From Candidatus Poribacteria bacterium (GTDB lineage Bacteria > Poribacteria > WGA-4E > GCA-2687025): 64,000 nucleotides of DNA. The notes under the pieces were generated by a model. That model had not been told where the DNA came from and searched no databases. It worked only from the letters and a program-made list of their open reading frames with translations. Every line of letters starts with the position of its first letter. Position 1 is the first letter of the stretch. The DNA lies in assembly GCA_028818695.1 (NCBI GenBank), contig JAPPNK010000020.1, forward strand, positions 64,632-128,631. The letters are read 5' to 3'. The translations under genes were made by a program, and so were the position numbers. Positions 12,575 to 63,330 of this stretch are shown in pieces.

Positions 12575-12661
12575 GGGCGGGTGGTGGAAATGGCAGACAC
12601 GATAGATTTAGGATCTATTGGGCGAAAGCCTGTAAGGGTTCAAGTCCCTTCTCGCCCACCA
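12575..12661 (+). tRNA. tRNA-Leu (anticodon UAG), type II with long variable arm
   Basis: 87 nt cloverleaf folded by hand: 7-bp acceptor stem GGGCGGG/CTCGCCC (one GU), anticodon stem ATAGA/TCTAT, loop TTTAGGA (U33, anticodon TAG, G37), long variable arm, T-arm AAGGG-TTCAAGT-CCCTT, encoded ACCA 3' end. Confidence 0.9.
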
Positions 12662-30522: not shown

Positions 30523-30594
30523 ACTTCGCTCCTTCGGTTGACATGCCGTTCAAAAAAGCGCACCATGTCTCCAACGACCTATTGTAGAGAGCGA

Positions 30595-31617
30595 ATGATG
30601 AACGCGCAACAGACATCTCCCATACCGATCACAATCCTATGCGGATTCCTCGGCAGCGGCAAAACGACTCTCCTGAACCGCATACTCAGCGAAAACAGGG
30701 ACTTAAAAACGGCCGTCATCGTGAACGAATTCGGCGAAATCGGCATCGACAATCAGCTCATCGAAAGCGTGGATGAGCTGAACGGCGTCGTAGAACTCAA
30801 CAACGGCTGCATCTGCTGCACCATCAACGCCGATCTGCTAGAGACCGTTCATAACCTGCTTGAAACGAGAGACGGGCAGATCGATTATATTCTCATCGAA
30901 ACGACCGGGCTTGCGGATCCGCAGCCCGTTGCGCAGACGCTCTGGGTTCCAGAAATCGTCGAAAAGGCGTTCATCGATTCCATCGTTACGATGGTGGACG
31001 CGGTGAATCTGCCGCAGGCGATGGAAGAGACGCGGATCGCCGAAGCGCAGATCGCCTTCGCCGACTTTATCGTTCTCAACAAGGTCGGCGCGGCGAAGAC
31101 GAAATCTGTTCAGCGCATCGAAAAACAGATTCTCGCTCTGAACCCGTATGCGCGCATCCTGAAGACGAACTACGCCGACATCGACCTGAATCTGATTTTG
31201 GACGTCGGCGTCTTTCAGTTGGACGAACCGACCGGCGAAGACGCGCATGAACATGATCATGAGCATGACCACAACCATGATCATGACCATGAACACGAAC
31301 ATGAGCATGACAGCGCGGAAAAAGGGTATGCGTCCGCCTCGTTTGCGTTGGATCGTCCAATGAAGGCGCAGGCGTTTAAATCCTTTTTAGAGCAGATGCC
31401 GCGAACTATTTTCAGGGCGAAGGGCGTACTCTGGTTTTTGGGAGAGGATCGGCGCGCGCATTTCAACCAGGTCGGCAGCAGCGTTATGATGGAATGGGGA
31501 GCAAAATGGGGAGAGACTGCGCAGAGCCAAATCGTGTTCATTGGGCAAAAATTTGACGAGGACGCGCTTCGCAAAAGCCTAGAGAGCTGCCTTGTCGATC
31601 CGCCGGCGCCGCGCTAG
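30595..31617 (+). CDS. CobW/COG0523-family GTPase (putative zinc metallochaperone) with His-rich insert
   Basis: GTPase motifs GFLGSGKTT, CxCC (GCICCT); His/Asp/Glu-rich stretch HEHDHEHDHNHDHDHEHEHEHD; start at internal Met. Confidence 0.85.
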   Translation: MMNAQQTSPIPITILCGFLGSGKTTLLNRILSENRDLKTAVIVNEFGEIGIDNQLIESVDELNGVVELNNGCICCTINADLLETVHNLLETRDGQIDYILIETTGLADPQPVAQTLWVPEIVEKAFIDSIVTMVDAVNLPQAMEETRIAEAQIAFADFIVLNKVGAAKTKSVQRIEKQILALNPYARILKTNYADIDLNLILDVGVFQLDEPTGEDAHEHDHEHDHNHDHDHEHEHEHDSAEKGYASASFALDRPMKAQAFKSFLEQMPRTIFRAKGVLWFLGEDRRAHFNQVGSSVMMEWGAKWGETAQSQIVFIGQKFDEDALRKSLESCLVDPPAPR

Positions 31618-53053: not shown

Positions 53054-53297
53054 AAGCGCTCCTTCCGTTGCATCATAACATGCGCGCGTCGTTTGCGCAA
53101 CAGCTTTCGGCGATGTCGGCGCTTGAGTGGGGGCATGGTGCGCGAGAACGGCGGTCTGCCGGGCGGCTGCAGTTCAGCCTAAGAAACTTGGTCAACGGCA
53201 TTTGACAAACTCCCCCCCGCGCGTTAAACTATGAATCAAGCAGGGCGGATAACGGCATCCGTCAAGAGCGCGCAACTGCAATCAGAAAGGGTTGTTC

Positions 53298-54749
<1,452 letters not shown>

Positions 54750-54773
54750 ACTAGACGGGAGAAACATACAGCG

Positions 54774-55535
54774 ATGCTTGAAATCAAAGACCTATGGGCG
54801 GGCGTTGACGGGGAGCCGATCCTGAAGGGTTTGTCGCTCACGGTGAACGCCGGCGAGGTCCATTCCATCATGGGTCCGAACGGATCCGGCAAAAGCACCT
54901 TGGCGCATGTGTTAGCCGGCAAGGAGGAATACGAGGCGACCGACGGAAGCGTCCAGTACCTCGGCCAAGATCTGTTGGAGATGGCGCCTGAGGAGCGCGC
55001 ATGCGAGGGCGTCTTTCTGGCGTTCCAATACCCTGTCTCTATACCCGGCGTCAGCAACACCTACTTTTTGAAAGCGGCCATCAATGCGAAGCGGAAATAC
55101 AACGGCGATCAAGAGATTGACGCTTTTGAGTTCATGCAGATGGTTAAGGAAAAGTCGAAGGCGCTGAACATCGATACGGCTCTGCTGAACCGCCCCGTCA
55201 ACGACGGCTTTTCCGGCGGCGAAAAGAAACGGAACGAGATTTTTCAGATGGCGATGTTAGACCCGCGCCTCGCGATCATGGACGAGACCGATTCGGGGTT
55301 GGACATTGACGCGCTCAAGGTGGTTGCGGACGGCGTCAACAGTCTGCGCGGGGACGGCCGAGGATTCATCGTCATCACCCACTACCAGCGGCTTTTGAAC
55401 TACATTGTGCCGGATTTTGTTCATGTGCTGAACGACGGCAAGATCGTCCGCTCCGGCGGAAAGGATCTGGCGCAGGAGCTGGAAGAAAAAGGGTACCGTT
55501 GGCTAAAAGAGCGGGATGAAGCCCATGGCGGATGA
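54774..55535 (+). CDS. sufC: Fe-S cluster assembly ATPase SufC
   Basis: Walker A GPNGSGKST, signature FSGGEKKR, Walker B AIMDETDSGLD. Confidence 0.95.
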   Translation: MLEIKDLWAGVDGEPILKGLSLTVNAGEVHSIMGPNGSGKSTLAHVLAGKEEYEATDGSVQYLGQDLLEMAPEERACEGVFLAFQYPVSIPGVSNTYFLKAAINAKRKYNGDQEIDAFEFMQMVKEKSKALNIDTALLNRPVNDGFSGGEKKRNEIFQMAMLDPRLAIMDETDSGLDIDALKVVADGVNSLRGDGRGFIVITHYQRLLNYIVPDFVHVLNDGKIVRSGGKDLAQELEEKGYRWLKERDEAHGG

Positions 55536-56810
55536 TCTGAAGCAACGCCTCTTGAACGGCATTCAAAACGCTTCAAGCCTCTCTGTGCGCAGGAAAAGCG
55601 CGCTGGACGCCTTTCGGGGCATGCAATTCCCGACGACGAAGACGGAGGAGTGGCGGTTCACCAACCTGCGCAATTTTCTTCAAACGCCGTTTGAACCCGC
55701 TCCAGAGGCGCGCCTTTCGCTGGATGAGCTGAACGCGGTTGAATTCGCGGACCTCGGCTTTCCGCGCGCCGTGTTCGTGAACGGGCGTTACGCGCCGGAG
55801 CTGTCGAACGCGGAGGAGGCGGACGGGATCTCAACGGCTCCGTTGAACGAGGACGCGGAGCTCGGATCGGCAGACGAATCGGAAAGCGACATCTTCGACG
55901 CGCTGAACGCGGCGATCGCAAGCGAAGGCGTTGTCGTACGCGCCGCCCCTGGAAAGGCGGTCGAAACGCCCCTGCATCTGGTGTACCTCACATCGCCATC
56001 CAACGGCAGCCCTGCGGCTTGCCACCCGCGTACGCTCATCGCCGCCGGCGGCAACAGCCAGCTGACCGTCATCGAGTCGCATCTTTCCTGCGGCGGATCG
56101 AACGGCGCGCCTTATTTCACCAACCCTGTGACGGAGATTGTGTGTCAGCGCGGCGCGGTCGTCGACCATTACAAACTGCAGGCTGAAGCGGAGGGGGGGT
56201 TCCACATCGGTTCAACCCGTTCGCGCCAAGAACGGGACAGCTCCTTTGCGACGCACACCATCACTCTCGGCGCGGGGCTTCTTCGCAACAACCTGACAGC
56301 GACCTTGGACGGACCCGGCGCCTCGGCGACGCTCCATGCGTTCTATCTGGCGACCGGGAATCAGCATGTCGACCATTTCACAACGCTCGTTCACGCGCGC
56401 GAGAACTGCAACAGCCGCGAGGTGTATAAAGGCGTTTTGGACGACGCCTCGCGCGCCGTTTTTCATGGGCGCATACTCGTCAAGCAGGATGCCCAAGACA
56501 CCGATTCGTATCAGCAAAATGAGAATCTGCTGTTGACGAAGCGGGCGCGCGTCAACACGAAGCCGCAGCTGGAAATCTACGCTGATCAGGTCAAATGCAG
56601 CCACGGGGCGACCGTTGGGGAGCTGGACGAAGAGGCGATGTTTTATCTGCGGTCGCGCTGCATCGGGGAGCCGGCGGCGCGCAGCCTGCTCATCTACGCT
56701 TTCGCCAGCGAGGTGATTGACCAGATAAAGCCTGAACCGCTGCGTTCCAAGCTTCAAGACGAATTGTTTGCCTGGCTGCCTGAAGGCGCCGCGGCGCGGG
56801 AGGCGTTCTG

Positions 56811-56811
<1 letters not shown>
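55516..56811 (+). CDS. sufD: Fe-S cluster assembly protein SufD
   Basis: 431 aa; position between sufC and sufS and SufB/D-family C-terminal domain. Confidence 0.85.
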
Positions 56812-58055
<1,244 letters not shown>

Positions 58056-58063
58056 GAAGGCGC

Positions 58064-58516
58064 ATGTCCGAACTGAACGAGCTGTACCAGCAGACGATCC
58101 TTGACCATAACCGAAACCCGCGCAACTACGGCGTCCTAGAAGACGCGGACGGAGAAGCGGACGGCCACAACCCGCTCTGCGGCGACAAGGTGCGGATTTA
58201 TATCGCGTTAGAAGGCGACACGATACGCAGCGCTCGGTTCGAAGGCGTTGGATGCGCCATCTCGACCGCCTCCGCGTCGCTTATGACTGAAGCGCTGGAA
58301 GGCAAAACGCTTGACGAGGCGGAAGAGCTGTTCGCCGGTTTTCAAGAGCTCGTAACGACGGGGCAGGACGCGATGGACGCCATCGAGTCGCTGGGCAAGC
58401 TTGCTGTGTTTGCGGGCGTCCGCGCCTATCCGATGCGCGTCAAATGCGCGACGCTCGCATGGCACACTTTCAAAGCGGCCCTCAATCAAGAGACGGCGAC
58501 CGTCACCACGGAATGA
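58064..58516 (+). CDS. sufU: SUF system NifU-family Fe-S scaffold (SufU-type)
   Basis: 150 aa; NPLCGD, GCAIS and C-terminal Cys typical of SufU/IscU-like proteins. Confidence 0.8.
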   Translation: MSELNELYQQTILDHNRNPRNYGVLEDADGEADGHNPLCGDKVRIYIALEGDTIRSARFEGVGCAISTASASLMTEALEGKTLDEAEELFAGFQELVTTGQDAMDAIESLGKLAVFAGVRAYPMRVKCATLAWHTFKAALNQETATVTTE

Positions 58517-58539
58517 TCTGAACTGGACGAGATCGAACG

Positions 58540-59808
58540 ATGTCGGAACTGATGCGCTGGGCGGAGAGGCTCAAAAAAGTACCTGAATCGCGGAGAGGCT
58601 TTTTGTCAAAGATTGGCAAAGGCGCGATTCTTGCCGGGATGGGAGCTTTCGGCGCAGGATGCGAATCGTTCGACCGCGGCGTCTTGGGGCGGGAGCTGAT
58701 ACCGATTGTCCTTGAAGACGCGCGGCTGGCGGGGCTGCCAAAGCCGGACATGACCGTCCATACCGAATTCCCGTTCAACGGCGAATTCGCCCCTAGCCTT
58801 CTGAACGACGATGTCACCCCCTCCGAGCGGCACTTCGTCCGAAATAACAGCGGCATTCCTGAACGCGCCGTCAACCAAGACTTTGCAGGCTGGAAGCTGA
58901 CCATCGATGGGGAAGTGAAGAAACCGCTCTCGCTATCGATGAGAGAGCTGAACCAGTTTCCGCAGACGACGATGCAGGCGGTGTTGGAGTGCGCCGGGAA
59001 CGGGCGCAGCCTCTTTGAGCCGAAGGTGGGCGGAACGCCTTGGCGGCGGGGCGCCGTCGCATGCAGCGAATGGAGCGGACCGCGCCTGCGCGATCTGCTT
59101 CAAGCCGCCGGCGTGAAATCGAGCGCCGTTTATCTCGGCTGCTACGGCGAAGATATTCCGAACGACGGAAGCGAGCCGTTCTCGCGCGGTATCCCCATCG
59201 AAAAAGCGCTGGACGAACACACGCTCATTGCGACGATGATGAACGGAGAGCCGCTGCCGGCGGCGCATGGTTTCCCTGCGCGCCTGATCGTGCCAGGTTG
59301 GATCGGCAGCGCCATGCAGAAGTGGCTCACACGCATCTGGGCGCGCGACATCGTCCATGATTCCAGTAAAATGACCGGGTATTCTTACCGCGTCCCCGCG
59401 TATCCGACGGCGCCCGGCGAAACGCCGCCGGTAGAGGATATGGTTATCGCGACGGCGTGGAAGGTGAAGTCGCTCATCACGCGCCCGCAGGAGTATGTTG
59501 AACTAAAACCCGGGGCGTCGCTCTCGGCGAGAGGGCATGCCTGGGCGGGCGAGAACGAGATCGCGAAGGTCGCCGTCTCGACCGATTTTGGGCAGCAGTG
59601 GCAGGAGGCGCGCCTGACGCCGCCTGCCAACAGATACGCTTGGTACCACTGGGAGGCGGACCTGTCGTTTCCCATCCGCGGCTACTATGAGATCTGGGCG
59701 CGCGCCTACGACGACAAGGGAGCCGCGCAGCCTTTCAAGCAGCCCTGGAACCCGAAAGGGTATCTAGGCAACGTGATTCACAGGGTTCCAGTTCTCGTTG
59801 ACAGTTAA
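58540..59808 (+). CDS. Sulfite oxidase-family molybdopterin oxidoreductase with Tat signal
   Basis: Twin-arginine leader RRGFLSKIGKGAILAG; molybdopterin-binding domain (VLECAGNGRS, ARLIVPGWIG) and C-terminal dimerisation-like domain. Confidence 0.75.
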   Translation: MSELMRWAERLKKVPESRRGFLSKIGKGAILAGMGAFGAGCESFDRGVLGRELIPIVLEDARLAGLPKPDMTVHTEFPFNGEFAPSLLNDDVTPSERHFVRNNSGIPERAVNQDFAGWKLTIDGEVKKPLSLSMRELNQFPQTTMQAVLECAGNGRSLFEPKVGGTPWRRGAVACSEWSGPRLRDLLQAAGVKSSAVYLGCYGEDIPNDGSEPFSRGIPIEKALDEHTLIATMMNGEPLPAAHGFPARLIVPGWIGSAMQKWLTRIWARDIVHDSSKMTGYSYRVPAYPTAPGETPPVEDMVIATAWKVKSLITRPQEYVELKPGASLSARGHAWAGENEIAKVAVSTDFGQQWQEARLTPPANRYAWYHWEADLSFPIRGYYEIWARAYDDKGAAQPFKQPWNPKGYLGNVIHRVPVLVDS

Positions 59809-59823
59809 ACGAAAGAGGCAAGC

Positions 59824-60198
59824 ATGGCAAAAAAAGCGCAGTTGACCGACCTTGTCGGCGCCGATCAGATCGAAGAGGAGATCGTTGCGGCGCTGAAGAC
59901 GGTGTACGACCCTGAGATACCTGTCAACATCTACGATATGGGTCTCATCTACGAAATTGAGGTGGACAAGGCGGGCGCGGCGACGGTGAACATGACCCTG
60001 ACAAGCCCCGCATGCCCCGTCGCGCAGTCGCTTCCGCTGGCGGTGAAGGACAAGGTCGCCTCGGCTCCGGGCGTGACGGAGGCGCAGGTGAATGTGGTCT
60101 GGGATCCGCCGTGGACAATGGAGCGGATGTCGGACGAAGCGAAGTTTGAGCTGGGGCTTATGGATGTGGAGCCTGTGGAGCGGGATCGTCGGCGTTAG
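59824..60198 (+). CDS. sufT: DUF59 / MIP18-family Fe-S assembly protein (SufT-like)
   Basis: 124 aa; VYDPEIPVNIYDMGLIY...TLTSPACP typical of DUF59 proteins; last gene of the suf cluster. Confidence 0.6.
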   Translation: MAKKAQLTDLVGADQIEEEIVAALKTVYDPEIPVNIYDMGLIYEIEVDKAGAATVNMTLTSPACPVAQSLPLAVKDKVASAPGVTEAQVNVVWDPPWTMERMSDEAKFELGLMDVEPVERDRRR

Positions 60199-60234
60199 GG
60201 ATTTTTAAGAAACGCCCAGCGCCCAAAACCGCCG

Positions 60235-60283
60235 TCATTCCCGCGAAGCATGTCCTCGTTAAAACGGGGAGCGGGAATCCAGA
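60235..60283. repeat. Expanded palindromic repeat unit (GTCATTCCCGCG + 27-nt insert + GCGGGAATCCAG)
   Basis: Same arms as the 27-bp unit with a longer loop; immediately upstream of MITE-like copy B. Confidence 0.6.
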
Positions 60284-60360
60284 TTCAAGCAGACAGCGTC
60301 CGCGTTCACAACCAGATTTATCCTACTCAAGGGTTAAGTTGAGCGCTCCGTTTATGCAAC

Positions 60361-60538
60361 AGGCGTCTTCTCCAGGCAGCCTCTACAGGCGATGATGTAC
60401 GAAAATCCTGTTCAAATCGGGCAGATCGTCATTCCCGCGAAAGCGGGAATCCAGGTTCTCCCAGACAGCCTCCGCATTCTAAAACGGCTCTATAAAATCA
60501 AAATCATCGTCATATAGAGACTGCCTGGAGAAGACGCC
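60361..60538. repeat. MITE-like repeat element, copy B (about 178 bp, 25-bp terminal inverted repeats, embeds the palindromic unit at 60428-60454)
   Basis: Termini AGGCGTCTTCTCCAGGCAGCCTCTA ... TAGAGACTGCCTGGAGAAGACGCCT are inverted repeats with one mismatch; interior about 93% identical to copy A at 30372-30522. Confidence 0.75.
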
Positions 60539-60694
60539 TAATCGTCATTTCCGACGACGCCCAGGTCTCTAATGATGACCTTAACATCGGAAGCGTCGGG
60601 GGACGCAGTTGAGTACCGCTTTTCGTGGTCGGCGTAGTGCGGCGTCCACAGCTGATTTAACCGCAAAAAGCTTCTTGTTGCGCGCAGCGCCTGC

Positions 60695-60949
60695 TCAATC
60701 CTTGTCCGCAGAGTACGCCTTTCTCGCTTCTCTCTCTTTTTCTGCCATCAGCTCGCGGATGCGCCTTAGGTCTAGGCGGGCGCCCTTTGCCCATATCTGC
60801 GCCTCATCAGAATGCAAAAACGCGCGCGCGTCCTCCCGCATCTCCGCCGGCGCGGACGAGCCTGGCAGCGCGTCTCGGCACGCCGCCGCCATCACCGCCT
60901 GCGCCATCGTTCCGTACCGTTCCCAGGTTTCTTTCCGCTGCGTATCCAT
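60695..60949 (-). CDS. Small hypothetical protein (84 aa), coding status uncertain
   Basis: Only sizeable ORF in the 0.9-kb non-coding stretch between sufT and the kinase gene; no motif. Confidence 0.25.
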   Translation of the reverse strand: MDTQRKETWERYGTMAQAVMAAACRDALPGSSAPAEMREDARAFLHSDEAQIWAKGARLDLRRIRELMAEKEREARKAYSADKD

Positions 60950-61145
60950 TGTTTTCTCCTTCGCTCGCTTGCTTTTTAAACGGCGAAAGGGCGCGATTCG
61001 ATTACAGAAAAACGACCTAAAGTGCTGTTATTTTTTCTCGGCGTACAGCGTCGGAATCAAGAAATGAGTTTAGAGAAGTTAAAATTCTGGCGTTGCCGCT
61101 TGAGTCGGGTATGTCAGGACATGGAAGCAGCTCGTTATTGCCGAT

Positions 61146-62193: not shown

Positions 62194-63330
62194 TTAGACG
62201 AATCTGCCGCAGAAATGGCAGACGCGCCGAAGCGTCGCCAGGCCGACCGTCTCCGTCAGCGCGGGGACGTCCGGCTCATGCGCCGAGACGCATGTTTTGG
62301 ATCGGCAGACAGGGGCGGCATGCGTTTGCGCCTCCGTCTTTTTGGGTTCAAACGGGTTGCTCGGCGCCCTGCCGAGAGCCAGCGCCAGCAGCGCCATTCG
62401 CACCGGCACGCCGTTTGAGGACTGCTCAAAATAGACAGCGCGCGGGTCGTCGTCCAGCTCGCGCGCCAGCTCGTCCACGCGCGGAAGCGGATGCAGCGCC
62501 AAGCAGGTCGGCTTCGCCCGCGCAATCAGCGCCGCGTCAATGCGGTATTGACTCGCAATCCGCTGTATCTCCTCGGCGTCCAGATCGTCCGGCAGCCGTT
62601 CTTTTTGAAGGCGGTTCACATACAGAGCATCCAGGTCTTCAATCACATGCCCAGGATGGCGCGCGCGAGACACCTTCGCGCCGTACTGCTGATCTAGACG
62701 CCACATTTCCTCTTCAGGAAGCTCAAGACCTTCCGGGGCGATCAGAACGATGTTGACGTCAAACGCCGCCAAGCCGTACACCAGCGAATGCGCCGCCCGC
62801 CCAAAACGAAGATCGCCGCAAACCCCTACCGTCATTCCCGACAGATTTTCCCGCGCCTTCCAGAGCGTGTAGAGGTCGGTCAAGGTCTGCGTCGGATGCT
62901 GATTTGCGTTGTCGCCCGCGTTGATGACCGGTACGGTTGAATGCAGCGCCGCGAGCCGCGCCGCGCCCGCCCAAAAATGCCGGATGACCAGCACATCCGC
63001 GTAGTTGCAGAGCATATGAATCGTGTCGGCGAGCGTCTCTTTTTTGGCAAACGAGGTAGAATTTGGGTCGGCGAATCCCAGCACATTGCCGCCTAATCTG
63101 AACATGGCGCTCTCAAACGAAAGGCGCGTTCGCGTGCTGGGTTCATAAAACATCGCGCCCAAAATGCGCCCTTTGCACAGGTCGGAACCCATCTCGCGCA
63201 TGATCTCCATATCGCGGGCAAGCTCAAAAAAGCGGAGCATCTCCGCGCGGGTCAGGTCCTCAATGCGTATAAAGTTCTCCACAACGGCTCTCCAGAGACT
63301 GCGCCTGCTGTTTAAACGAGTCGCGCGCAT
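62194..63330 (-). CDS. pyrB: Aspartate carbamoyltransferase catalytic chain with fused C-terminal PyrI-type zinc domain
   Basis: STRTR, HPTQ and HPLP motifs; C-terminal 55 aa extension with C-x4-C-x23-C-x2-C spacing and CVSAHEP block resembling the PyrI zinc domain (CISHAEP). Confidence 0.85.
   Translation of the reverse strand: MRATRLNSRRSLWRAVVENFIRIEDLTRAEMLRFFELARDMEIMREMGSDLCKGRILGAMFYEPSTRTRLSFESAMFRLGGNVLGFADPNSTSFAKKETLADTIHMLCNYADVLVIRHFWAGAARLAALHSTVPVINAGDNANQHPTQTLTDLYTLWKARENLSGMTVGVCGDLRFGRAAHSLVYGLAAFDVNIVLIAPEGLELPEEEMWRLDQQYGAKVSRARHPGHVIEDLDALYVNRLQKERLPDDLDAEEIQRIASQYRIDAALIARAKPTCLALHPLPRVDELARELDDDPRAVYFEQSSNGVPVRMALLALALGRAPSNPFEPKKTEAQTHAAPVCRSKTCVSAHEPDVPALTETVGLATLRRVCHFCGRFV

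What the first reader, a model, noticed from the sequence alone, without database searches (positions are those of the whole stretch)
62194..63330. Aspartate carbamoyltransferase with a fused PyrI-type zinc domain but no allosteric domain
After the complete catalytic domain (STRTR, HPTQ, HPLP) the ORF continues for about 55 aa with C-x4-C-x23-C-x2-C and a CVSAHEP block, matching the spacing and local sequence I recall for the zinc domain of the regulatory chain PyrI. No separate pyrI is visible in the window. A catalytic chain carrying only the zinc domain would be an unusual architecture.
Basis: partly seen in the sequence, partly recalled or inferred. Interest (0 to 1): 0.45.

Follow-up and report, generated by a model that had tools for sequence, protein, structure and literature searches.

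The report
ATCase with fused PyrI zinc domain
This gene encodes the pyrimidine-pathway enzyme aspartate carbamoyltransferase with only the small zinc-binding half of its usual regulatory partner fused to its end. The layout is conserved across a large group of uncultured bacteria, and I found no description of it in the literature I could search.

Summary
The minus-strand ORF ending at 62194 is a complete aspartate carbamoyltransferase catalytic chain (TIGR00670, 313 bits). It runs on for 57 residues containing C-x4-C-x23-C-x2-C. The real start is probably GTG 63282 (362 aa), not ATG 63330.

The window's tail alone matches Pfam PyrI_C only below threshold (E 0.026). A profile of 27 orthologous tails, however, hits only PyrI regulatory chains in the PDB (E 1e-6 to 7e-5, over the zinc domain), and 24 of 27 tails hit PyrI_C individually. 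The four Cys are invariant. 113 of the 120 closest homologues (Poribacteria, Armatimonadota and unnamed lineages) share the layout. So do 44 of the best 150 representatives clustered at 50% identity.

There is no allosteric (PF01948) domain in the protein, in the window, or within 10 kb of three homologues. The catalytic part is closest to PyrI-associated archaeal and E. coli-type enzymes, and a near tail-less relative sits in an ordinary pyrB-pyrI operon.

Best reading: an ancestral pyrBI pair lost the nucleotide-binding domain and fused. The zinc domain probably docks on its own catalytic chain as a structural cap, giving an enzyme without PyrI-type nucleotide control. The docking site, oligomeric state and absence of pyrI elsewhere in the genome were not tested. 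Sister lineages add further domains, including PyrR, after the zinc domain.

The parts
62194..63282 (-). pyrB-Zn gene. Encodes 362 aa from GTG 63282 to the TAA stop at 62194-62196. The mechanical ORF reaches ATG 63330, but that 16-codon extension is probably not translated.
   Evidence: Homologues are 357-368 aa. GGAGAG lies 5 nt upstream of the GTG. L007 has a stop in the extension frame.
62368..63282 (-). Aspartate carbamoyltransferase catalytic domain, residues 1-305 (carbamoyl-phosphate and aspartate half-domains). Contains STRTR 63124-63138, HPTQ 62887-62898 and HPLP 62482-62493.
62335..62367 (-). Linker, residues 306-316 (APSNPFEPKKT). It joins the last catalytic helix to the zinc domain and sits where the fusion junction would be.
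   Evidence: The distance from the RMA motif to Cys1 is 27-29 residues in 102 of 113 homologues. AF2 pLDDT is 86-93 across this stretch.
62197..62334 (-). PyrI_C-type zinc domain, residues 317-362. Cys326, Cys331, Cys355 and Cys358 are the presumed Zn ligands (codons 62305-07, 62290-92, 62218-20, 62209-11). The protein ends 4 residues after the last Cys.

Best explanation
SHOWN. The gene encodes a complete aspartate carbamoyltransferase catalytic chain with all catalytic motifs. Its C-terminus continues through an 11-residue linker into a 46-residue Cys4 domain homologous to the zinc domain of the regulatory chain PyrI. The nucleotide-binding (allosteric) domain of PyrI is absent from the protein and from the window. 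The layout is conserved in a large clade: Poribacteria, Armatimonadota and many unnamed metagenomic lineages.

INFERRED, origin. In a pyrB-pyrI operon, where the two genes are adjacent and often overlap, an in-frame deletion removed the pyrB stop codon and roughly the first 95-100 codons of pyrI. That joined the catalytic chain to the PyrI interdomain linker.

INFERRED, mechanism. The domain binds one Zn through the four Cys and packs in cis on the carbamoyl-phosphate half of its own catalytic chain, at or near the site the PyrI zinc domain occupies in E. coli-type holoenzymes. Regulatory chains dimerise, and so bridge the two trimers, only through the missing nucleotide-binding domain. The enzyme should therefore be a (c-Zn)3 trimer without CTP/UTP/ATP control of the PyrI type. 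The zinc domain would act as a built-in structural cap that stabilises the trimer and may tune aspartate affinity.
For: Catalytic identity:
- TIGR00670 scores 312.7 bits against a 236.95 cut-off.
- STRTR, the K84 equivalent, R105, HPTQ, R167, R229/Q231 and HPLP equivalents are invariant in 67 homologues.
- One homologue lies directly downstream of pyrD, with pyrK about 2.7 kb further upstream.

Zinc-domain homology:
- The tail profile hits only PyrI chains in the PDB: 2yww E 1.3e-6, 1pg5_B 4.8e-6, E. coli 7e-5, all aligned to r-chain 101-146. The next non-PyrI hit has E 0.16.
- 24 of 27 tails hit PF02748 individually.
- Cys spacing x4/x23/x2 is identical to E. coli PyrI. The four Cys and one Glu (aligning with E. 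coli r-chain Glu119) are invariant in the tail alignment.

No allosteric domain:
- There is no PF01948 hit, and only about 20 residues lie between the catalytic end and Cys1.
- NF009916, the model for the full PyrB-PyrI fusion, scores 107 bits against an 800-bit cut-off and matches only its catalytic part.
- tblastn of PyrI against the window is negative.
- No PF01948 gene lies within 10 kb of three divergent fused homologues.

Origin:
- The catalytic part is closest to PyrI-associated ATCases (P. abyssi 276, M. jannaschii 257, E. coli 240 bits). B. subtilis scores 116 bits.
- The tail-less relative P0120 (56% identical over 71% of the query) is followed by an overlapping pyrI.
- In rough NJ trees the fused forms group together, next to archaeal-type PyrB.

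Cis packing:
- The AF2 model built with 67 sequences has pLDDT 92.6 and pTM 0.92. The linker and tail score 86-95.
- Linker length is tightly conserved.

Role of the zinc domain in E. coli:
- It is the part of the regulatory chain that binds a catalytic subunit, while dimerisation goes through the nucleotide-binding domains (PMC11601545, PMC13168310).
- From memory, not retrievable here: Schachman's laboratory showed that an isolated 70-residue zinc domain forms a stable complex with the catalytic trimer, alters its kinetics and raises its thermal stability (Markby et al. 1991 PNAS; Peterson et al. 1994 Protein Sci).
Against: - The window's own tail falls below the curated PF02748 cut-off (14.8 against 23.4 bits). 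Its clade has replaced the usual C-x-N-P-x-C with CRSKTC.
- Among close relatives the linker plus tail evolves faster than the catalytic core (dN/dS 0.28 and 0.73 against 0.05 and 0.11). This rests on only 5-11 changes per class.
- Zn binding, oligomeric state and kinetics are untested.
- A standalone pyrI, or a standalone allosteric domain, elsewhere in the genome was not excluded.
Confidence: 0.6

Rival explanations
1. The fused zinc domain contacts a catalytic chain of a second trimer, as the E. coli r1 zinc domain touches c4 in the T state. Two trimers would then form a hexamer that keeps cooperativity for aspartate without any nucleotide effector.
For: The catalytic chain is of the E. coli/archaeal type that forms face-to-face trimers. 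A basic residue follows the last Cys (C-H-F-C-G-R) at the position of E. coli Lys143r. My recollection that Lys143r contacts the opposite trimer was not checked here. The AF2 monomer model cannot distinguish intra-chain from inter-chain contacts.
Against: In known holoenzymes the trimers are held together by regulatory dimers formed through the nucleotide-binding domains (PMC11601545), and those domains are absent here. The protein ends 4 residues after Cys4 and lacks the C-terminal segment present in E. coli PyrI. Nothing was computed on oligomers.
Confidence: 0.18
2. The zinc domain is an adaptor that recruits a separately encoded partner. The partner could be a stand-alone allosteric domain or another regulator, so regulation would be supplied in trans.
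For: In sister lineages the same zinc domain is followed in cis by extra domains. These include a conserved module of about 60 residues and, in P0151 and P0155, a full PyrR domain (NF003549, 148-158 bits against a 138-bit cut-off). This suggests the zinc domain can serve as a connector to regulatory modules.
Against: No candidate partner lies next to the gene in the window or in three other genomes. No PF01948-like ORF is in the window. The neighbours differ between lineages: PfkB kinase, PDDEXK_3 and an enolase-superfamily gene.
Confidence: 0.12
3. The tail is a decaying remnant of PyrI with no present function.
For: dN/dS of the linker plus tail is 0.28-0.73 among close relatives. The window's clade has lost the conserved N-P of the first knuckle. 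One Armatimonadota-type homologue, P0110, has Gly in place of Cys2.
Against: The four Cys, one Glu and the aromatic residue between Cys3 and Cys4 are retained across sequences only 45% identical. Linker length and Cys spacing are also conserved. The tail is kept in 113 of 120 homologues and 44 of 150 distant representatives. AF2 folds it with pLDDT 93-95.
Confidence: 0.07
4. The Cys4 tail is an unrelated zinc ribbon that resembles PyrI_C only by convergence.
For: Short Cys4 knuckles recur in many folds. 2 of 27 tails also touch PF13240 Zn_Ribbon_1 and 1 touches PF14952. The single-sequence E-value is weak.
Against: The profile search ranks only PyrI chains as significant and aligns the whole 46-residue domain. 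TIGR00240 ATCase_reg matches the zinc region of P0154 at model positions 105-145. The host catalytic domain belongs to the PyrI-associated lineage.
Confidence: 0.03

Closest known systems
E. coli/archaeal class B ATCase (PyrB catalytic trimers plus PyrI regulatory dimers, 2c3:3r2)
   Same: The catalytic chain belongs to the same lineage: 240-276 bits and about 43-47% identity to E. coli, P. abyssi and M. jannaschii chains. The Cys4 domain is homologous to the PyrI zinc domain with identical Cys spacing.
   Different: The zinc domain is part of the catalytic polypeptide. The nucleotide-binding domain, which carries the effector sites and the r-r dimer interface, is absent. Neither the dodecamer nor CTP/ATP control can be formed in the known way.
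Fused PyrB-PyrI ATCase (NCBIfam NF009916/PRK13376, about 525 aa; fused catalytic and regulatory polypeptides cited in review PMC4581275)
   Same: A single polypeptide carries the catalytic chain followed by PyrI-derived sequence.
   Different: Those fusions keep the complete regulatory chain. P0250 (459 aa) is an example, with about 95 residues of allosteric domain before the Cys motif. The window protein scores 107 bits against the 800-bit cut-off and matches only the catalytic part of that model.
Engineered complex of E. coli catalytic trimer with the isolated 70-residue zinc domain of PyrI (Schachman laboratory, recalled from memory; papers not retrievable here)
   Same: The composition is the same: a catalytic trimer plus three zinc domains and no allosteric domains. 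This is the best functional analogy for what the natural fusion may do, namely stabilise the trimer and alter its kinetics without nucleotide effects.
   Different: The engineered complex is non-covalent and made in the laboratory. The window protein is a natural covalent fusion with an 11-residue linker, and it lacks the residues that follow Cys4 in E. coli PyrI.
Class C ATCase (Bacillus subtilis-type unregulated catalytic trimer)
   Same: The predicted quaternary state (trimer) and the lack of PyrI-type nucleotide regulation.
   Different: The catalytic lineage differs (116 bits to B. subtilis against 240-276 bits to class B enzymes). Class C enzymes have no zinc domain.

Membership tests
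Aspartate carbamoyltransferase catalytic chain (TIGR00670 / PF02729 + PF00185) | Full-length match above the curated cut-off | tested here: met
   TIGR00670 312.7 bits against 236.95. NF002032 281.4 against 263. PF02729 E 8e-44. PF00185 E 6e-27.
Aspartate carbamoyltransferase catalytic chain (TIGR00670 / PF02729 + PF00185) | Catalytic and substrate-binding residues (STRTR, K84, R105, HPTQ, R167, R229/Q231, HPLP; E. coli numbering) | tested here: met
   All are present in the window protein and invariant in the 67-sequence alignment.
PyrI_C zinc-binding domain (PF02748) | Score above Pfam's gathering threshold for the window sequence itself | tested here: not met
   14.8 bits against 23.4, E 0.026, profile positions 8-41 of 48.
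PyrI_C zinc-binding domain (PF02748) | Homology shown at family level | tested here: met
   24 of 27 orthologous tails hit PF02748 at E below 0.01 (best 8.9e-10). The tail profile hits only PyrI chains in the PDB, E 1.3e-6 to 7e-5. Distant fused relatives score 23-42 bits, nine of ten at or above the 23.4-bit cut-off.
PyrI_C zinc-binding domain (PF02748) | Four Cys ligands spaced C-x4-C-x23-C-x2-C | tested here: met
   The spacing is exact in the window. The four Cys are invariant. The Cys2-Cys3 spacer is 23 residues in 88 of 113 homologues.
PyrI_C zinc-binding domain (PF02748) | Actual Zn binding and contact with the catalytic chain | not testable with these tools
   The only indirect evidence is the AF2 model: pTM 0.92 and tail pLDDT 86-95. 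No coordinates or multimer prediction were available.
Complete PyrI regulatory chain / class B holoenzyme | N-terminal nucleotide-binding (allosteric) domain PF01948, which provides the effector sites and the r-r dimer | tested here: not met
   No PF01948 hit in the protein. No room for it, since only about 20 residues lie between the catalytic end and Cys1. None in the window by tblastn. None within 10 kb in L007, L009 or L011. The rest of the genome was not searched.
Bifunctional PyrB-PyrI fusion (NF009916) | Match over the whole 525-position model above the cut-off | tested here: not met
   107.3 bits against 800. Only model positions 13-348 are matched.

The most novel reading that the evidence does not exclude
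PyrB-Zn enzymes are a fourth natural structural class of ATCase. In this class the PyrI zinc domain has become a permanent, cis-acting adaptor on the catalytic chain. In the minimal form, as here, it would set trimer stability and aspartate affinity, or hold two trimers together to give nucleotide-independent cooperativity. In sister lineages the same adaptor carries replacement regulatory modules, including a PyrR domain. Allosteric control of this textbook enzyme would then have been rebuilt on a conserved connector.
Probability: 0.3. Interest if true: 0.65.

Novelty: new variant of a known kind. Interest (0 to 1): 0.5.

Why it matters
ATCase is the textbook allosteric enzyme. The review I checked (PMC4581275) describes three prokaryotic quaternary types, plus fusions of the catalytic chain to a whole regulatory chain.

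A widespread natural form that keeps only the catalytic-chain-binding half of the regulatory subunit is a ready-made experiment on what the zinc domain does by itself. Candidate roles are stabilisation, tuning of aspartate affinity and trimer-trimer contact.

It also shows how a two-gene allosteric machine can be simplified, or re-equipped with other sensor domains such as PyrR. Practically, these proteins are annotated simply as 'aspartate carbamoyltransferase'. Pathway reconstructions for Poribacteria and Armatimonadota would therefore wrongly assume either E. coli-like or B. subtilis-like regulation.

Tried and rejected
- Single-sequence AF2 model: pLDDT 42, unusable. Replaced by the alignment-based model.
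- AFDB search: the library was unavailable.
- phmmer of the single tail against the PDB: no hit. Only the family profile worked.
- Literature: seven searches, one of them wasted because 'PyrI_C' was read as 'pyric'. They found no description of a PyrB plus zinc-domain-only fusion.
- The Schachman zinc-domain papers could not be retrieved, so they are cited from memory only.
- I could not obtain a list of c1-r1 contact residues. I therefore dropped the plan to test conservation of the docking surface.
- Rfam scan and promoter/terminator scan: no PyrR-binding site, attenuator or other signal near the gene.
- The listing of cluster members: gave almost no taxon names.
- Rejected: that the fusion is an assembly or frameshift artefact. 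It is conserved in hundreds of independent contigs.
- Rejected: that the enzyme is a class A (DHOase-associated) ATCase. The catalytic lineage is the PyrI-associated one.

Full report
**1. What is in the sequence**

The minus strand carries an ORF from 63330 to 62194 (378 aa). Pfam finds the two half-domains of the aspartate/ornithine carbamoyltransferase fold at residues 19-157 and 165-317 (E 8e-44 and 6e-27). NCBIfam names it aspartate carbamoyltransferase (TIGR00670, 312.7 bits against a 236.95 cut-off).

The alignment to the E. coli catalytic chain runs from c-chain residue 8 to 306 and ends at ...LALALGR.

Fifty-seven further residues follow: APSNPFEPKKT-EAQTHAAPVCRSKTCVSAHEPDVPALTETVGLATLRRVCHFCGRFV. 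The spacing is C-x4-C-x23-C-x2-C, the same as Cys109/114/138/141 of E. coli PyrI in the alignment.

The true start is almost certainly GTG 63282, giving 362 aa:
- GGAGAG lies 5 nt upstream.
- All close homologues are 357-368 aa and begin M-E-H-F-I-R-I-E-D-L.
- The 93%-identical locus L007 has a stop codon in the upstream extension frame.

**2. Is the tail a PyrI zinc domain?**

On its own the window's tail gives only a sub-threshold PF02748 match (14.8 bits, E 0.026) and no PDB hit. The family settles the question.

- Of the 120 best homologues in the 5.8-billion-protein collection, 113 have the same Cys4 tail.
- In an alignment of 27 diverse tails, the four Cys and one Glu (aligning with E. 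coli r-chain Glu119) are invariant, and the consensus is C-x-N-P-x-C-V-T-x-H-E...C-x-Y-C-G.
- A profile of those tails hits only PyrI regulatory chains in the PDB: M. jannaschii 2yww E 1.3e-6, Sulfolobus 1pg5_B 4.8e-6, E. coli 7e-5. It is aligned to r-chain residues 101-146, which is the zinc domain. The next non-PyrI hit has E 0.16.
- 24 of the 27 tails hit PF02748 individually (best E 8.9e-10).

The window's own clade has diverged in the first knuckle (CRSKTC instead of C-x-N-P-x-C). That explains its weak single-sequence score.

**3. What is missing**

There is no PyrI allosteric domain (PF01948) in the protein. Only about 20 residues separate the last catalytic helix from Cys1, and the N-terminus starts directly with the catalytic domain.

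- The model for complete PyrB-PyrI fusions (NF009916) is matched only over its catalytic part, at 107 bits against an 800-bit cut-off.
- Three divergent fused homologues have no PF01948 gene within 10 kb. They are a Poribacteria-like 455-kb scaffold, an Armatimonadetes MAG and a 6.28-Mb genome.
- In the 6.28-Mb genome the gene lies directly downstream of pyrD, with pyrK about 2.7 kb further upstream. This fits an ordinary biosynthetic role.
- In the window the downstream neighbour is a PfkB-family kinase and the upstream neighbour a divergent membrane glycosyltransferase-like gene.
- No pyr genes were found among ten other window ORFs scanned.

I could not search the rest of the genome.

**4. 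Where it comes from**

The closest genome is a MAG labelled Candidatus Poribacteria (OY762492.1, 3.95 Mb, 96% identity).

The catalytic part is nearest to the PyrI-associated lineage: P. abyssi 276 bits, M. jannaschii 257, Moritella 247, E. coli 240. B. subtilis scores 116.

One of the few tail-less proteins among the top hits is P0120 (56% identical over 71% of the query). It sits in a canonical operon with an overlapping 151-aa pyrI carrying PF01948 and PF02748.

A rough neighbour-joining tree of catalytic domains puts all fused sequences in one group beside archaeal-type PyrB. The tree has no support values.

The homology of the tail begins at about r-chain residue 101, the interdomain linker. 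The simplest history is therefore an in-frame deletion in a pyrBI operon. It would have removed the pyrB stop codon and the first 95-100 codons of pyrI.

**5. How widespread**

A full HMMER scan of 1.84 billion representatives clustered at 50% identity gave 14,158 hits. Among the best 150:
- 44 have a PyrI_C-type Cys4 module directly after the catalytic domain, and P0175 has one with a longer spacer.
- Only one, P0250, is a complete PyrB-PyrI fusion.

The fused proteins come in three grades:
- A minimal form like the window's, with 0-21 residues after Cys4.
- An extended form (424-514 aa) with a conserved module after the zinc domain and usually an insertion in the aspartate half-domain.
- Proteins of about 655 aa in which that module is followed by a PyrR domain (NF003549, 148-158 bits against a 138-bit cut-off).

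In a second rough tree all these types sit together, apart from canonical PyrB and CAD. The window's gene is thus the minimal member of a large, apparently undescribed architecture family.

**6. Structure**

With the 67-sequence alignment, AlphaFold2 gives mean pLDDT 92.6 and pTM 0.92. The linker and tail score 86-95. Strands at 319-321, 341-346 and 352-355 flank the Cys pairs.

High confidence through the linker, together with the high pTM, suggests the small domain is packed against the catalytic body and not floating. The conserved linker length points the same way: 27-29 residues from the RMA motif to Cys1 in 102 of 113 homologues.

The tools return no coordinates, and whole-chain PDB searches see only the catalytic part. 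The docking site is therefore an inference, not a result.

**7. Mechanism**

In E. coli the zinc domain is the part of the regulatory chain that binds a catalytic subunit. The regulatory chains dimerise, and so tie the two trimers together, through the nucleotide-binding domains (PMC11601545, PMC13168310).

A catalytic chain carrying only the zinc domain therefore has no known way to bind CTP, UTP, ATP or GTP, or to build the 2c3:3r2 dodecamer. I propose a (c-Zn)3 trimer in which the zinc domain is a cis-bound cap.

From memory: Schachman's group showed that the isolated zinc domain forms a tight complex with the catalytic trimer, changes its kinetics and raises its thermal stability. This is the nearest experimental analogue. 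I could not retrieve those papers.

Evidence pulling the other way:
- Among close relatives the linker plus tail has dN/dS of 0.28-0.73, against 0.05-0.11 for the catalytic core. This rests on very few substitutions.
- One homologue, P0110, has lost Cys2.

Rival readings are listed with their tests: trimer-trimer bridging, recruitment of a partner in trans, a vestigial remnant, and a convergent zinc ribbon.

**8. Novelty**

The domains are known. The arrangement is detectable in precomputed Pfam annotations: about 30 of the 120 hits already carry PF02748.

Seven full-text searches found no description of it. The transcarbamylase review lists only the three classical prokaryotic types plus fusions to a whole regulatory chain.

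I rate it a new variant of a known kind, of moderate interest. It is a natural dissection of a textbook allosteric enzyme. The PyrR-bearing relatives add interest beyond the window itself.

Noticed in passing
P0151, P0155, P0175 (about 653-658 aa; metagenomic relatives, not in the window): These relatives have the layout catalytic chain, then PyrI_C zinc domain, then a conserved module of about 60 residues, then a complete PyrR domain (uracil phosphoribosyltransferase/regulator). P0151 and P0155 score NF003549 148-158 bits against a 138-bit cut-off and also hit PF00156. The PyrR domain is a possible replacement nucleotide sensor attached through the zinc domain.
   Followed up: partly
P0153, P0154, P0161, P0163, P0168, P0169, P0182, P0185, P0190, P0194, P0203, P0205, P0244, P0257, P0269 (424-514 aa relatives): These extended PyrB-Zn proteins carry 46-115 extra residues after Cys4, with a conserved signature ..V-G-(H/N)-x-x-S-(K/R)...(F/L)-F-x-S-x-x-E-A-x-x-x-G-(F/Y)-x-P and no Pfam match. 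Most also have an insertion of 30-50 residues between HPTQ and HPLP in the aspartate half-domain.
   Followed up: partly
window 63283-63330 (minus strand): The 16-codon N-terminal extension from ATG 63330 is probably not coding. It differs at 10 of 48 nt from L001 and has an in-frame stop in L007. GTG 63282 has a GGAGAG Shine-Dalgarno 5 nt upstream.
   Followed up: yes
window 53292-60198 (plus strand): By synteny with L007 this is a SUF iron-sulfur assembly cluster: SufB-, SufC- and SufD-like ORFs, SufS 56811-58055, NifU_N/SufU 58064-58516 and FeS_assembly_P 59824-60198. A sulfite-oxidase-type molybdoenzyme gene (58540-59808; Oxidored_molyb + Mo-co_dimer) sits inside it, which is an unusual insert for a suf operon.
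   Followed up: no
window 30538-31617 (plus strand); L007 2887-7236: A CobW/COG0523-type GTPase (PF02492 + PF07683), often a zinc metallochaperone, lies in the window. In the 93%-identical locus L007 a ZnuA/ABC-3 metal-uptake operon lies 3-7 kb upstream of pyrB, beyond the window's end. Any link to the zinc-containing ATCase is speculative.
   Followed up: no
P0110 (360 aa, Armatimonadota-type homologue): The second Cys of the zinc motif is replaced by Gly (CPNPDGANR...) in an otherwise intact tail. This is either a sequencing error or a natural loss of a Zn ligand.
   Followed up: no
window 12575-12658 (plus strand): This tRNA is the only Rfam hit above gathering score in the 64 kb (52.9 bits). 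No PyrR-binding site or other pyr leader RNA is present.
   Followed up: no
window 60199-61145: A stretch of about 950 nt lies between the FeS_assembly_P gene and the PfkB kinase gene. It holds only unsupported ORFs, and the syntenic L007 has just an 80-aa ORF without a Pfam hit. It was not examined.
   Followed up: no
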